From IMG/VR virus record IMGVR_UViG_2721755728_000008: a stretch of 40,851 nt of DNA. One strand, given 5' to 3'. This document shows positions 21,001 through 27,000 of this stretch, piece by piece. Numbering within the stretch: position 1 is the stretch's first letter; each line of letters opens with the position of its first letter. The stretch is from a virus (taxonomy: Duplodnaviria; Heunggongvirae; Uroviricota; Caudoviricetes). Made by a program: the position numbers.

Positions 21001-24000
21001 GACACACGTAATGCCGCGTAGGCATACACCAGGCAGTCCAGCGCTTCGTTACGCCGCTTTTTGTTATCCCACAGCAGACGCATCTTTCCTTTTTCCCACT
21101 TCTCCACAAGCTCTTCCGCGACCAGTTGCTGCGCCTCTGTCTGCGAAAAAATCTCCGGATCATCAGGAAAACGGATGGCATACGACGTGGCTTCATCCGC
21201 AGGAGTGGGATCGGCTTTCATACGGGCATAGAGAATTTCTTTTGCGGTGTCCGTCCCCACTTCACACAGATACACGCCCCGCTGATTGCGGGTTTTCGGC
21301 ATGGTGATCACCGGCTTGCCATAGACAGATGCGCCTTTTACCGGCAGCACCCGGAAAACACCGTGTTTTTTTGACCTCTGATAGACAATTTCACCATCGA
21401 TCCCCCCGGTGTCCCAGCAGACACGGGAAATGGTCATTTCGGTTCCGTCTGCATGGCAGTATTTTTTGTTGATCGCCGCATCCACACGTAACAGCGTCTC
21501 TTCCTCATCGGGACGGCCCATAATGATGATTTTATCCACCAGAAAGGCTTCCTCTCCCTGTGCCCATCCCCAGACATACATCTCAAAACGGTTTCGCTGC
21601 GAGTCAATGCCCGCCGTCAGATAAACCACCCGGGCAGGCACCGCCGCCGTGTAACGCACCACCTTATCCATCAGTACCTGGTGATCGAGTTTTTCGCCCA
21701 CGGCCTCTTCCCAGGTCTCGCCCAGCGTGGTGTTCACAAAGGTTTTCAGGCCGTTGGGATCTTTCAGTGCATCCAGCCAGTCATAGACTATCTGTATCCA
21801 GGTGGTGAACGGACTGTACGCCGTCCAGATATGGAACGTGATGGAGCGCGGCGGCGGAATTTCATCCCCCCGGGCGCTGAAAAACATCAGGCCGTCACGG
21901 GTCCACATACCCGTGTTTTCACAGATCCAGCGCCCGTTACTCTGGTCAAGCTCAGACTGATGGATCACGCAGCCATGATGTTCACAGAGGTAGAAAACGC
22001 TTTCGGGGCTGTCCTTCTCCCATTTAAGGCCAAAAGGCGTGGATTCATCGCCAAATTTCAGATACTGCGCCTCCCCACAGTGCGGGCAGGGCACATAGAA
22101 ACGCATGAAATGCGCCGACTCGTTGGCCGCTTTTTCGATCTGGCAGGTACCTTTGATTTTAGGCGTCGAGCCGCGAATGGATTTTGGCCATACAGAGCCC
22201 TCAATACGCTTATCCCCCAGCAGGGTTGGCGAGCCCTCTTTTTCGACATCCGGCTCGAACGAGGAAAGCTCGTCATAGCAGACCACGTCCACGGATTTTT
22301 CACGGTAGTTTTTGGCGGCTGCACCGCCCAGGCACCAGAAACCGACGCCCGATGAAAAGCGTTTCAGCGTGAGAGTATTGTCACGATGTTTACGACCCAG
22401 CCATGGGGAAAGGTCTTTCAGGCATGGCACGTTCCGAATCGTCGCCTCCACGTGAGACTTCATAAAATCTTCAGCGGCAGAATCCGTGGGCTGAAAAAGC
22501 AGACTGTTTCGGGATTTATGCTCAATAAAATACCCGACCACCCCCAGCAACATCTTTGTATAGCCAACACGGGCAGATTTAATCAGGTTAACCGTGCGAA
22601 CCTGGTCGTTACCCATACAGTTCATAATGGCGATCTGGAATGGCAGCGTTTTCCATTCTCCCTCACCATATGAAGATTCTTTAGGCAGATAATAATTTTG
22701 ATCAGCCCATTCAACTGCCGTCATTGGTACAACCCTGACCAGAGGCTGCAGCGCAACCGAAACGGCAGCCATCATATTATTCAGTTGTTGCTCTGATATA
22801 TTCATCGAGTAAATCCGGTAATTTATCCCCTGCCCGCGCACACTGATTTGCCCCCTTCGCAATAAGGGTTTTCAGATGGTCAAGATGGCGCGGTGTTAAA
22901 TCAGGAAACTGTCGCTGCATGGATAAAGGGATGGAATCAAGCGTACTGGATAACGCCATTGCCAGCTTACTGAGGGCAAAAATACAGAACCCGGTGTCAA
23001 TAAGTTTTCCTTTTGACACCTCATTTTTTAACTGCTGTGTAACAGCCTGTTCTGCTGTCAGTTCCCATCTGGCAATAAGCAATTTCTCCTCATAGTCGTC
23101 TTCGCTATCGCCATCAGGCACATCGTTTTTACTTCTCCTCAGATACGATATGTAAAAATCGCGCCAGGCATCCAGATCCAGTTGCCCTCGCTTATTCGAT
23201 ATCGGGGCACCCGGCAATTTCTGCAATCTGCGAAGCTGGCGATCGGTCAGACTTAAATGCCTGGCAACTTCAGTCTGCGTAGCCACTCCTCACCTCGCAA
23301 AAACTCTCACCTCACAATCACAACAAAACCGGTCATGTCCGGTTTACATGTCTGTTTTTTGTTCATGTCCGGTTCACAGAAGACCTGTTTTTATATTTTT
23401 CATATAGTTAACTTGAAGAGAAACCGGACATGGATCCCGGAAAATTTTCATAAATAGCGAAAACCCGCGAGGTCGCCGCCCCGTAACCTGTCGGATCGCC
23501 GGAAAGGACCCACGAAAATGATAATAATTATCATCTACATGAGGTTTATCACGACATGTGTGTACGCCATCAAACCACGAGAAATAATCAATTATTACGC
23601 AGGTATCGTATTAATTGATCTGCATCAAATTAGCGTAAAAGCAACTTCAGATAATACAAATCAGCAACACTGAATACGGGGCAACATTATGTCATCAAAG
23701 AACAGAACCCGCAGAACAACAACCCGCAACATCCGATTTCCAAACCAGATAATTGAACAAATTAACATCGCTCTTGACCTGAAAGGTTCAGGTAATTTTT
23801 CAGCGTGGGTTATTGAAGCCTGCAGAAGAAGATTAATTAATGAAAAATATTCTCAATTTGTACCCAACAAAGACAAACACGACCAGAGCACCTGTTCAGA
23901 CAGGTTTACTTAAACGACTTATATATGACACAAAAAGCGACCACTAAAGTCGCTTTTTCTTATGGTAACAGGCAATAACTCTCTCAGATATTTTTTAGCA

Positions 24001-27000
24001 TTTTTTTGACCGCGCGTTTCCGGACGTATTCTGTTCTCCTGTCCCTTTATATCGTCGGAATACCCGCCGCTCTTCAAATCCCATTCCCAACTCAGAATGT
24101 AGTCTGTTGACCGCTTGTTTTATTTCGGTCAGGTTCACCGGTGAAACCGGAGTCCGGCGCGCCTTACGCAAACACTCTGCTCGTTTCTGTGCCGCCACTT
24201 TTCTTTTCTGGTCATCACTTAGCTGTACCATCACTTTTGCCCATCGTTCAGCTGCTCTCCGGTACAGTCCTTTTTTCTCCAGACATTCTGCCACGTGATC
24301 ATGTAGCATAAGTGACCTCCGATTATCTACAGACTGCCATCCTGAATTTACCTTCCCTTAATGAAATAACAATAAAAAACAAACCACGCAAAAACAATAA
24401 AACAACACACAAAAAAAACTAAATAATAAACAAAAATAATCACCTTATTTTATTATTTTTTGAGGGAGCAATTACTGAACAAAAAACGCTGACTATATAC
24501 TCAAAACCAAACAACTATTCTGCCAATCAGGTATCATGGCAACACACGGAATTACCGTGTTTTTGCCTTCTCTGCCCATACAATACGGGCATATACTTCA
24601 TTCTCTATTGTAATATTTCTATCCATGTGCCCCACTCCATTTACCTGTAAATAATATTCAAAATATTTATCACAGAAATCGTTTTTGGCCATGAACTGAG
24701 CACACTATAAAGTCCGGAACTGACTCTTTGTTAAATTACCTTAACGTTACCAGTAACACCTTCATAACAAAACATCACGGTATACACTGGGTACGGATAT
24801 ATTCCTGTGCTCCTTCCAGTTGCTTCTGCATTGCCATCAGCCGTTCTCTGAGGATGAAATAATCCCGTTCAGCGGTGTCTGCCAGTCGGGGGCCGGTTGC
24901 ATTATCCACGCCGGAGGTGCCGGTGGCTTCACGCACGGTACCGGAGCAGGTGGCGTTGATCCGCAGGCGCTTACGACCAGCGGCAACATCAGCACGCAGA
25001 GTTTCATTTTCAGCTCTCGCATCGGCTAATTCCCTCGAGTATCTGGCATCAAGTGCAGCGACATCACGCTGGCGTATCTGCATATCAGTAATTGTCGCGT
25101 TCGCCAGCTCCAGCTCACTGGCTTTTTTATCGCGCTGCTCTTTGTAGATGATGGCGTGATCACGGTAATGATTCAGCCCCAGACTAAGCGCACCACAGGC
25201 CACCAGCAGGACAATGATAACCACGCACAGAACACGGTTCATATCACCACCAACGGATTGCCCAGACCAGAACAGCAATGGCCACAATACGAATGGCAAA
25301 AGCTGCCGCTCTTGTTAAATCCAGACTGGCTGGCGTCTCCACTTCAATGCCTTTCATAATGGACAACCTCAGAAAGAATCTTTTATACTTCCTCACAGGG
25401 AAAGTACCTCCCTACCCATAATTTCTCCCTTGCCTTACTCAAGGTCAGAAAACACAAAACCCCGCTTGCTGCCAACAAACGGGGTTTTTACTTTTATTCA
25501 CTTAGGTTTTACCAGTTTTCAGGATTTCGTGTTATCCACCCGCGTTGGCCAACGTCATTTTTCAGGAAAATATTCTGCTATCTGTCGATGTCCCAGCACG
25601 CCAGCGCGCTCTCCTGGTCACGCCGTGAGACCTGACCGTAGCAATTATTTGAACGGATACGGCAGTCTCTGCCACCGTCCTTAATCCACCAGCGAATCGC
25701 CTCACAGGCACCTTTTCGATCGCCTGCATTAATTCGTTTATAAAACGTCGACGGGAAGCACTTACCGGGGCCAATGTTGTACGGACAGAATGACGCGATC
25801 CCCGCTTTCTGGGGTTCGGTCAGCGGCACCCGGATGTTTTTCTCCACCCATGCCAGCGCCTTGTCACGTTCGATGGCATTAACCCGGTCGCATTTTTCCT
25901 TTGACAGCTTCATGCCAGGAATAACAGGCTTACCATCCACCAGAATGGCACCACGGCAGATGGTCCAGATCCCCGCACCATCACGGTATGCCGTGGTGTG
26001 GTTACCTTCCTTTTCATCCAGAAACTGGTCGAGGATTTCAGGCGCAGAAGCACCTGCACCAATCAGCGCCAGAACGGCAGCCGACAGGCCGTATTTTATT
26101 TTTTCGTTCATGGGGATTTATCGATTTCTAATCCCTTGATATGTTAGGTATATAATCCAACACTCATGGTCGCTCTCATAAACATATCCCTTGAGACGCA
26201 GCAGATTACAACAAATGAAGCCATATAAATGAACAGTAAAGAAAGTTTGCGCAGAAGATTTTTACAACTAATGACAGAAAACGTTAAATCAGAGTTACTT
26301 CTTCTGATGGCAGATAATAACGAAGCAACAAGCAGCATTCTTGCAGACCCTTACGGTAAGATCTCACATAAAACGCTGGATATTATTACCACAACATTAA
26401 CACCGCTGATGCTTCAACGGCTGAAACATAATATCAACGCATGGGTTAATGAAGAATTAAGTCCTCCCTGCTTATGGGATTCTCGTTACGCATGTCAGCA
26501 AAAAATGCGAATTTTCAACTTACTATCACCAAAGCTCAGGTAGCCATAAAATCCTGCCCTTCATGGCATACAGGATTTCAATGGAATCACAATGACCAAC
26601 TCTTGCACAGCTGTATCCCTGACTCCCCGACAACTCAGATTTTCAGTATCTGCTGCTATCTAAAGAGAAAGCGCACAAATGCAAGGGTCTTTCATCACGT
26701 CCTGTTATTGATTGCCTGTGACCTTTTCTCACCTCATGGAACGTTTTTTCAGTTAGAAATATTCATTTTACAACCAGTTCGTATTGTTTATTCATCGACT
26801 ACTCTCCCCGCGCCACCTTACGCTTATCTTCTTTAATCTTGAAATAAAGGTTAGTCAGATACGTCAGCAGGCCAAACAGCAGACTCCCCAGCACACCTAT
26901 TGCCACCCACTGGGACGGAGAGACTTTGTCCAGCAGTTGCAGTAACCAGTATCCCGTCCCTACCGCTGACGTGGTGTATGACACACCTGTTGTGATTTTT

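What the first reader, a model, noticed from the sequence alone, without database searches (positions are those of the whole stretch)
23689..24480. PerC/Pch-like regulator next to cos with a long T-rich upstream tract and a divergent small RHH gene
A PerC-family activator, of the kind that switches on LEE expression in EHEC, sits between Rz and cos. Upstream of it (about 24343..24430, minus-strand sense) is a ~90-bp tract made almost entirely of T and G, typical of curved or H-NS-bound DNA. A small ribbon-helix-helix ORF lies on the other strand nearby.
Basis: partly seen in the sequence, partly recalled or inferred. Interest (0 to 1): 0.4.

Follow-up and report, generated by a model that had tools for sequence, protein, structure and literature searches.

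The report
Known EHEC virulence regulator pch gene
This is an ordinary copy of pch, the well-studied prophage gene that switches on the attachment genes (LEE island) of enterohaemorrhagic E. coli; its protein is identical to PchA of the O157:H7 Sakai reference strain, and the odd T-rich DNA in front of it is real but is part of that same known locus.

Summary
The ORF at 24309..23995 (-) is a PerC-family protein (Pfam E 3.8e-44). It is 104/104 identical to PchA and 103/104 to PchB of E. coli O157:H7 Sakai. The 900-bp locus, upstream tract included, is 99.8% identical to Sakai pchA. It lies between Rz and cos of a lambda-like prophage. The segment occurs in 675 of 5426 complete E. coli genomes, median 3 copies.

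The T/G tract is real. Its core is 24436..24368 (91% T+G, one C), and it is the strongest strand-biased segment in the window (score 45; simulations 19 +/- 2.3). It shows no helical phasing and only moderate predicted curvature. I found no H-NS occupancy data for it. In pchB and more distant alleles the T runs persist, while G changes to A.

The small ORF (23689..23913, +) is a YlcI/YnfO (DUF3950) protein. A ribbon-helix-helix fold is plausible but only weakly supported. It is convergent with pch, not divergent; the two share a bidirectional terminator hairpin. It is lambda backbone, found in lambda itself, in DLP12 and in 153 phage records, so it is unlikely to be a dedicated pch partner.

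Verdict: already known, low interest.

Side observation: a perfect palindrome that resembles a Fur box sits 36 bp from cosN in every lambda-type cos I examined.

The parts
23995..24309 (-). pch gene (group 1, PchA/B/C type), 104 aa PerC-family regulator
   Evidence: PF06069 E 3.8e-44. 104/104 identical to Sakai PchA ECs_1091, 103/104 to PchB ECs_2182, 47% to EPEC PerC. Family-invariant R17, A19, A20 and W23 are present.
24316..24320 (-). Shine-Dalgarno GGAGG, 6 nt before the ATG at 24309..24307
   Evidence: Read directly from the sequence. Identical in Sakai pchA.
24364..24444 (-). T-rich, C-poor tract upstream of pch (core 24368..24436); -55 to -135 relative to the ATG
   Evidence: 89-91% T+G on the sense strand. 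Segment score 45 against simulated 19 +/- 2.3. Identical in Sakai pchA. In pchB the T runs are kept and G changes to A. More distant alleles reach only 60-73% T+G.
24345..24372 (-). Candidate proximal sigma-70 promoter TTGTTA-16-TAAATT (8/12). It would give a leader of about 29 nt and place the tract at the -35/UP position
   Evidence: Read by eye; coordinates. It falls below the scanner's 9/12 threshold. This is inference only.
24514..24542 (-). Alternative distal promoter-like site TTGCCA-17-AATAGT (9/12). It would put the tract inside a 5' leader of about 200 nt
   Evidence: The scan found fewer promoter-like sites than the shuffles did (2 against 4.2), so this is not evidence of function.
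23932..23958 (.). Bidirectional intrinsic-terminator hairpin between the convergent pch and ylcI-like genes (AAAAAGCGAC...GTCGCTTTTT)
   Evidence: Fold -14.7 kcal/mol, z -3.2 against shuffles. The stem is flanked by an A run and a T run, so it reads as a terminator on both strands.
23689..23913 (+). YlcI/YnfO-family (DUF3950) gene, 74 aa, probable ribbon-helix-helix; lambda-backbone gene divergent from Nu1/cos
24552..24692 (-). 46-aa ORF between Rz and pch, a recognised phage family of unknown function
   Evidence: phrog_2157, E 2.7e-37, full length 46/46. No Pfam or NCBIfam hit.
24775..25299 (-). Rz spanin gene (with Rz1 embedded at 24837..25022), upstream boundary of the pch module
   Evidence: PF03245 E 1.2e-48. 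ORF list.
23470..23481 (-). cosN 12-nt cohesive-end sequence GGGCGGCGACCT
   Evidence: Exact match. The flanking sequence aligns with the right end of lambda.
23518..23534 (.). Perfect 8-1-8 palindrome ATGATAATAATTATCAT overlapping a Fur-box-like 19-mer (23514..23532, 17/19 to consensus)
   Evidence: The only site in the window; 0.02 expected by chance. The core TGATAAT-N-ATTATCA is present at the same place in lambda, DLP12, Sakai Sp4 and Sp11, ev099 and the window's twin locus L001.

Best explanation
The locus is a group-1 pch gene (pchA/B/C type). It is carried as a lysogenic-conversion 'moron' in the slot between the lysis cassette and cos of a lambda-like prophage.

Shown here: the protein is identical to Sakai PchA. 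The whole 900-bp module is 99.8% identical to the Sakai pchA locus. The module is AT-rich (39% GC against 51% for the window). It ends in a bidirectional terminator shared with the convergent lambda-backbone gene ylcI/ynfO.

From the literature, applied by sequence identity: PchA activates the LEE1/ler promoter by relieving silencing by H-NS, StpA and Hha. pch transcription responds to Lrp plus butyrate, to LrhA and to the sigma-S/NtrC pathway. pchA translation is gated by an anti-SD element in the coding region that the sRNA DicF opens.

Inferred: the T-rich tract at -55 to -135 is the upstream regulatory part of the pch promoter. It would act as an A/T-tract platform for alpha-CTD or for nucleoid-associated regulators (H-NS, Lrp, LrhA). 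What selection keeps is the T runs and the near absence of C, not the G residues.
For: Identity. Synteny Rz - pch - (ylcI) - cos - Nu1, the same as Sakai Sp11 pchB. Distribution (675 of 5426 genomes, median 3 copies, 662 records at 99% or more). Low GC of the module. Terminator. Tract significance. Between pchA and pchB the flanks are about 95-97% identical, but the tract carries clustered G-to-A and C-to-T changes while the blocks TTTAGTTTTTTT, TTTTATTGTTTTT and GTTTTTTATTGTT stay fixed. Distant alleles (E. albertii, pDEC5B-4, Escherichia sp.) keep a homologous AT-rich, T-biased upstream region. Mechanism from papers: anti-H-NS action (PMC4764244); Lrp/butyrate on PpchA (PMC7279287; PMC4456613); LrhA (PMC4456613); sigma-S/NtrC (PMC10714755); DicF/anti-SD (PMC7769764; PMC7873438). 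A duplex calculation finds an SD:CDS pairing at +140..+168 (-20 kcal/mol). There are 10 nt of complementarity to the DicF 5' end at 24214..24205.
Against: The pch transcription start site could not be obtained from the accessible literature, so I cannot say whether the tract is promoter DNA or part of the mRNA leader. Consensus promoter matches are weak (8/12 and 9/12; one search found fewer sites than the shuffles did). The T runs show no helical phasing, and predicted curvature is only moderate (the wedge parameters were recalled from memory). I found no H-NS, Lrp or LrhA footprint or ChIP data for this tract. The leader-plus-CDS fold is not more stable than shuffles (z -0.5). Whether the host of this window carries the LEE is unknown.
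Confidence: 0.8

Rival explanations
1. The tract is transcribed and works as RNA. In this reading it is a U-rich, C-poor 5' leader of about 200 nt, started at the distal promoter-like site. It would bind Hfq, ribosomal protein S1 or RNase E and set pch mRNA stability or translation together with the DicF/anti-SD switch.
For: The only 9/12 sigma-70-like match on the sense strand lies upstream of the tract, at 24542..24514, in a stretch conserved between pchA and pchB. Published work describes regulation through a 'pchA leader region' (PMC7873438). GGA motifs lie between the tract and the SD.
Against: The promoter match is weak, and pchB changes its -10 (AATAGT to AATTGT). There is no Rfam family at E up to 1 and no significant structure. 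The published anti-SD mechanism needs only the SD region and the coding sequence.
Confidence: 0.25
2. The tract has no specific function. It would be low-complexity AT-rich filler at a mosaic junction of the moron, shaped by slippage and mutation bias and tolerated because it lies between genes.
For: Its exact sequence is not conserved between pchA and pchB. Distant alleles lack the extreme T/G purity. The whole module is low-GC foreign DNA.
Against: The T-run blocks and the length of the region are conserved between pchA and pchB, and are alignable even in alleles at 77-91% protein identity. C is almost excluded from one strand over 69-81 nt. That is a strand-specific bias which AT-richness alone does not explain.
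Confidence: 0.15
3. The small RHH-like protein is a dedicated regulator of pch.
For: It is adjacent, and it has a plausible DNA-binding fold. Convergent transcription could in principle interfere with pch if the shared terminator leaks.
Against: The gene is convergent, not divergent. It belongs to the lambda backbone and is found where pch is absent: lambda, DLP12, ev099 and the Stx phages with an HNH endonuclease and a different small terminase. Only its N-terminal 50 residues are conserved; the C-terminal tail changes with the neighbouring DNA. The palindrome near it has no second copy near pch.
Confidence: 0.05

Closest known systems
PchA / PchB / PchC of E. coli O157:H7 Sakai (ECs_1091, ECs_2182, ECs_2737)
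   Same: The protein is 100% identical to PchA and 99% to PchB. The upstream tract, SD, CDS and terminator are 99.8% identical to the pchA locus. The position in the prophage is the same as pchB in Sp11: Rz - pch - cos - Nu1.
   Different: Nothing of substance. In Sakai Sp4 the DNA downstream of pchA is interrupted by IS629, and the lysis-pch segment is inverted relative to the head genes. Here the ylcI-cos-Nu1 junction is intact. The host strain, and whether it has a LEE, are unknown. pchC itself was not fetched.
PerC of EPEC (perABC/bfpTVW operon, EAF plasmid pMAR7)
   Same: Same Pfam family. 47% identity over 87 residues, with the same conserved N-terminal motif. Same target, the LEE1/ler promoter (PMC4764244).
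   Different: PerC is 89 aa. It is the third gene of a plasmid operon under PerA, not a stand-alone prophage moron with its own T-rich upstream region. According to PMC4764244, LEE expression depends less on PerC in EPEC than on Pch in EHEC.
Lambda bor and other late-region morons
   Same: Same genomic slot (between Rz and cos) and the same logic: an accessory gene with its own regulatory DNA and terminator inserted in the late region. In DLP12 and lambda the slot holds bor, ybcV and ybcW.
   Different: bor is transcribed against the late operon, whereas pch has the same orientation as the late genes. The products are unrelated.
YlcI (DLP12) / YnfO (Qin) / unannotated lambda ORF at 48145-48303 (complement)
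   Same: Same family (DUF3950, NF041551). Same place next to cos and same orientation. The cos-to-ATG DNA is about 90% identical.
   Different: The C-terminal tail after about residue 50 is different in each context. I found no functional study of the family.
Ribbon-helix-helix proteins (Arc/Mnt, ParD, TacA antitoxins)

Membership tests
PerC/Pch family (Pfam PF06069) | Profile match above the curated threshold over the whole domain | tested here: met
   149.3 bits against a cut-off of 22.6; residues 1-89 match profile positions 1-89 of 90.
PerC/Pch family (Pfam PF06069) | Conserved N-terminal motif AExLExxGLYRRAAxRW (invariant R17, A19, A20, W23 in 45-46 diverse members) | tested here: met
   All invariant and nearly invariant positions are present in the window protein.
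Group-1 Pch (PchA/B/C) of EHEC | Near-identity to Sakai PchA/PchB, 104 aa | tested here: met
   104/104 to PchA; 103/104 to PchB.
Group-1 Pch (PchA/B/C) of EHEC | Encoded on a lambdoid prophage between the lysis genes and the packaging genes | tested here: met
   Order is Rz, pch, cosN, Nu1, TerL. Same order as Sakai Sp11.
Group-1 Pch (PchA/B/C) of EHEC | Activates LEE1/ler and is needed for full LEE expression | not testable with these tools
   Inferred from sequence identity with the tested protein (PMC4764244, PMC4456613). The window holds no LEE, and the host is unknown.
YlcI/YnfO (DUF3950, NF041551) | Profile match above threshold, and position next to cos/Nu1 in the opposite orientation | tested here: met
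   PF13132: 63.8 bits against a cut-off of 25. NF041551: 34.5 bits against 30. Synteny with DLP12 ylcI-nohD.
Ribbon-helix-helix superfamily | Strand-helix-helix topology and structural similarity to solved RHH proteins | tested here: inconclusive
   [not shown]
Ribbon-helix-helix superfamily | Significant sequence or profile similarity to an RHH family | tested here: not met
   The only Pfam hit is DUF3950. hhalign against Arc gives E 0.029 and probability 1.7%; against Mnt, E 0.2. No PDB sequence hit. phrog HicB-like at E 0.0099.
Intrinsically curved / H-NS-bound promoter DNA | High A+T content | tested here: met
   77-80% A+T in the tract; 31% GC across 24310-24551.
Intrinsically curved / H-NS-bound promoter DNA | A/T tracts phased with the helical repeat, giving strong predicted curvature | tested here: not met
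   No power at 10-11 bp; spacings of T runs are 8.5-49.5 bp. Wedge-model end-to-end ratio is at the 3rd-5th percentile, and eight other segments of the window are more bent (parameters recalled from memory).
Intrinsically curved / H-NS-bound promoter DNA | H-NS occupancy in vivo or in vitro | not testable with these tools
   The supplements of the Sakai H-NS ChIP paper that are held as text contain no entry for the pch loci.
Fur box (side observation at 23514..23532) | Match to the 19-bp consensus GATAATGATAATCATTATC | tested here: met
   17/19; the only site in the window; 0.02 expected by chance.
Fur box (side observation at 23514..23532) | Fur binding and iron-dependent regulation | not testable with these tools
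   I found no literature on it.

The most novel reading that the evidence does not exclude
The cos-proximal DNA next to pch may hold an unrecognised control element of lambda-type phages. A perfect palindrome, TGATAAT-N-ATTATCA, matches the Fur box 17/19. It sits 36 bp from cosN in lambda, DLP12, Sakai Sp4 and Sp11, ev099 and this window. If it binds Fur, iron would control the leftward ylcI-like RHH gene. That gene's transcription converges on pch, so the shared terminator would be the only barrier between an iron-responsive antisense transcript and the virulence regulator. Separately, the purine-variable T tract could be the cis element behind the published differential regulation of pchA and pchB.
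Probability: 0.1. Interest if true: 0.5.

Novelty: already known. Interest (0 to 1): 0.15.

Why it matters
Pch is the prophage-borne master switch that lets EHEC express the LEE type III secretion system, so finding it flags the prophage as virulence-relevant. But the gene, its place on lambdoid prophages and its mode of action have been in the literature since 2004-2005, and this copy is identical to the reference allele. Two things are not settled in the papers I could reach. First, what the T-rich tract does, and whether it is DNA-level or RNA-level control. Second, why pchA and pchB differ precisely there. That is a modest, testable question about how paralogous virulence regulators are tuned. 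It is not a new kind of element.

Tried and rejected
1. Known sRNAs at this locus. Esr41 is on SpLE1, not here. The Pas sRNA preprint does not involve pch. Rfam finds nothing in 23200-24900 even at E up to 1.

2. Curved DNA. T runs are not phased, and the curvature estimate is only moderate.

3. The palindrome as the operator of the YlcI-like protein. This is weakened because the palindrome tracks lambda-type cos. Stx phages that carry ylcI next to an HNH endonuclease have a 41-bp upstream region without it.

4. TSS and promoter data for pchA. The primary papers (Melson and Kendall 2019, Porter 2005, Abe 2008) are not held, and one broad literature search was unproductive.

5. H-NS ChIP supplement. 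It has no pch entry.

6. Wider comparative set. The search for related loci returned only two loci. Phage records hold the allele only once.

7. An apparent pch-like hit inside Sakai yccS. This was an artefact: several loci were stored in one file, and the hit was the E. albertii locus L005.

8. Full-length DicF:pch duplex energy. It is only marginally better than shuffles (3.7% of shuffles did as well), so it adds little beyond sequence identity with the published target.
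Full report
**Anatomy.** The window is a lambda-like prophage with its late genes on the minus strand. Reading the minus strand, the order is:
- lysozyme (26111..25578);
- Rz (25299..24775), with Rz1 embedded (25022..24837);
- a 46-aa ORF (24692..24552);
- a T-rich tract;
- the PerC-family ORF (24309..23995);
- a hairpin (23958..23932);
- the 3' end of a plus-strand 74-aa ORF (23689..23913);
- cosN (23481..23470);
- the small terminase subunit Nu1 (23286..22777) and the large subunit (22862..20877).

Pfam assigns PerC (E 3.8e-44), Rz (E 1.2e-48), Nu1 (E 1e-18) and DUF3950 (E 1.3e-17). RefSeq annotation of an identical stretch in another strain gives the same gene order.

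**Identity of the regulator.** The 104-aa protein is 104/104 identical to PchA (ECs_1091) of E. coli O157:H7 Sakai. It is 103/104 identical to PchB (ECs_2182). It is 47% identical to PerC of the EPEC plasmid pMAR7. A 900-bp alignment runs from the end of Rz, through the tract and the gene, to the terminator; it differs from the Sakai pchA locus at two positions. In an alignment of 45-46 diverse family members the invariant residues (R17, A19, A20, W23) and the nearly invariant ones (L10, E11, G14, R18, R22, C46) are all present. The 601-bp gene-plus-upstream segment occurs in 675 of 5426 complete E. coli genomes. It is usually present in three copies, and 662 records match at 99% or more; the rows listed are largely O157:H7, O145, O111 and O55:H7 strains. 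So this is a copy of a gene that has been studied since 2004.

**What that gene does (from papers, applied by identity).**
- Pch and PerC activate the LEE1/ler promoter. In EHEC, Pch works only when the promoter is silenced by H-NS, StpA and Hha. It changes the H-NS nucleoprotein complex rather than acting as a classical activator (PMC4764244).
- pchA, pchB and pchC form 'group 1', the group required for ler and espA expression and for adherence (PMC6265319; PMC4456613).
- pch transcription responds to butyrate through Lrp, to LrhA, and to the NtrC/sigma-S pathway (PMC7279287; PMC4456613; PMC10714755).
- Translation is blocked by an anti-Shine-Dalgarno element in the coding region and opened by the sRNA DicF under low oxygen (PMC7769764; PMC7873438).

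The leader and CDS here are identical to Sakai pchA, so these controls should apply. My own check found an SD:CDS duplex at +140..+168 (-20 kcal/mol). It also found a 10-nt complement to the 5' end of K-12 DicF at 24214..24205. The overall fold is not unusual (z -0.5).

**The T-rich tract.**
- It is real and statistically exceptional.
- The best-scoring segment is 24436..24368: 69 nt, 91% T+G, one C. Its score is 45; the next best in the window is 18, and 200 Markov simulations gave 19.0 +/- 2.3.
- It lies -55 to -135 from the start codon.
- Sakai pchB was compared with pchA. The DNA on both sides is about 95-97% identical, but the tract carries clustered G-to-A and C-to-T changes. The T-run blocks TTTAGTTTTTTT, TTTTATTGTTTTT and GTTTTTTATTGTT are unchanged.
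- Alleles at 77-91% protein identity (E. albertii, pDEC5B-4, an Escherichia sp.) have an alignable AT-rich, T-biased upstream region with only 60-73% T+G.
- What is conserved, then, is T runs on the sense strand and few C residues. The G content is specific to the pchA-type allele.
- The T runs are not helically phased. A wedge-model estimate, with parameters recalled from memory, puts the tract at the 3rd-5th percentile of the window for bending; eight other segments are more bent.
- I found no H-NS occupancy data for the pch loci and no accessible TSS mapping.
- Two weak promoter candidates bracket the tract. The proximal one, TTGTTA-16-TAAATT (24372..24345, 8/12), would make the tract -35/UP-element DNA. 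The distal one, TTGCCA-17-AATAGT (24542..24514, 9/12), would make it a U-rich leader.
- I favour the DNA-level reading, because all published inputs other than DicF act on transcription and AT-rich upstream DNA is the usual substrate of Lrp and H-NS. This is inference.

**The small plus-strand gene.**
- It belongs to the YlcI/YnfO family (DUF3950; NF041551; phrog_949).
- Its first 50 residues are almost invariant among 30 homologues, and the tail is different in each. The mosaic junction of the pch module therefore falls inside its 3' end.
- The pattern is a basic N-terminus, N-I-R-F-P, a helix, G-S-G-N and a second helix. This fits a ribbon-helix-helix.
- The AlphaFold2 monomer shows an extended N-terminus and two helices (pLDDT 64).
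- The gene is convergent with pch, and the two share the hairpin at 23932..23958. That hairpin is flanked by an A run and a T run (-14.7 kcal/mol, z -3.2).
- It is part of the lambda backbone. The same gene in the same orientation sits next to cos in K-12 DLP12 (ylcI-nohD) and in lambda itself (48145-48303, complement; not annotated in J02459). It is found in 153 phage records. By contrast, only one phage record holds this pch allele.
- In Stx phages with an HNH endonuclease and a different small terminase, it sits between Rz and the HNH gene.
- A dedicated role in pch control is therefore unlikely. I found no functional study of the family.

**Other features seen.**
- The 46-aa ORF between Rz and pch matches phrog_2157 over its full length (E 2.7e-37).
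- Next to cos there is a perfect palindrome, ATGATAATAATTATCAT (23518..23534), which overlaps a 17/19 match to the Fur-box consensus. It is the only such site in the window, with 0.02 expected by chance. Its core is present at the same distance from cosN in lambda, DLP12, Sakai Sp4 and Sp11, ev099 and the window's twin locus. It is absent from ylcI loci without a lambda-type cos. It therefore goes with cos rather than with ylcI.

**Verdict.** The gene is the known EHEC regulator pch in its known prophage position. The neighbouring small gene is lambda backbone and convergent, not a divergent partner. The tract is part of the known pch upstream region. Its role is not defined in the literature I could reach, and the pchA/pchB comparison suggests it is where the paralogues are tuned differently. 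Novelty: already known. Interest is low.

Noticed in passing
window 23514..23534: A perfect 8-1-8 palindrome, ATGATAATAATTATCAT, overlaps a 17/19 match to the Fur-box consensus. It lies 36 bp from cosN and 155 bp upstream of the ylcI-like ATG. It is the only such site in the window (0.02 expected by chance). Its core TGATAAT-N-ATTATCA is conserved at the same place in lambda, K-12 DLP12, Sakai Sp4 and Sp11, and phage ev099. It is absent from ylcI loci of Stx phages that lack a lambda-type cos.
   Followed up: partly
window 23587..23599 and 23607..23619: A second inverted repeat, ATCAATTATTACG / CGTATTAATTGAT (13-nt arms, 92% complementary, 7-nt gap), lies 70-100 nt upstream of the ylcI-like start. 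It is also conserved in lambda and DLP12. It could be an operator or a leader hairpin.
   Followed up: no
window 24552..24692 (-): A 46-aa ORF between Rz and pch matches phrog_2157 (unknown function) over its full length, E 2.7e-37. It is not annotated in Sakai. Its stop codon lies in the loop of a hairpin (24544..24560) that reads as a weak terminator only on the + strand.
   Followed up: partly
window 24300..24560 compared with L009:33207-33470 (Sakai pchB): The pchA-type and pchB upstream regions are nearly identical, except inside the T-rich tract. There, G-to-A and C-to-T changes cluster while the T runs are kept. This is a candidate basis for the reported differential regulation of PchA and PchB.
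   Followed up: partly
[not shown]
   Followed up: partly
window 23689..23913 (+); lambda J02459 48145-48303 (complement): Phage lambda itself encodes a YlcI/YnfO homologue next to its right cohesive end, and it is not annotated in J02459. Across homologues only the first 50 or so residues are conserved; the C-terminal tail changes with the adjacent DNA. Mosaic junctions therefore fall inside the gene's 3' end.
   Followed up: partly
window 23327..23377 and 23421..23432: The repeat CATGTCCGGTT(T) occurs twice as a direct copy 30 bp apart and once inverted, between cosN and Nu1. The layout is that expected of cosB R sites for the small terminase subunit. Their sequence differs from lambda's as I recall it (not compared here).
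   Followed up: no
window 29284..29456, 30230..30476, 33772..33946 (all -): Rfam finds STnc100, three tRNA genes and a sok antitoxin RNA. The tRNAs are annotated tRNA-Ile, tRNA-Arg and tRNA-Arg in the twin locus L001, corresponding to the cluster named ileZ-argN-argO in Sakai Sp4. The tRNA cluster downstream of Q recalls my memory of Stx-phage layout. In the annotated twin locus the genes between the tRNAs and the holin are TerB-like and DUF6645 pseudogenes and a DUF3927 gene, with no toxin gene.
   Followed up: no
window 23809..23899: My rough wedge-model curvature scan ranks this segment among the most bent in the window (ratio 0.869). It covers the 3' part of the ylcI-like gene just before the shared terminator, and it is more bent than the T-rich tract.
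   Followed up: no
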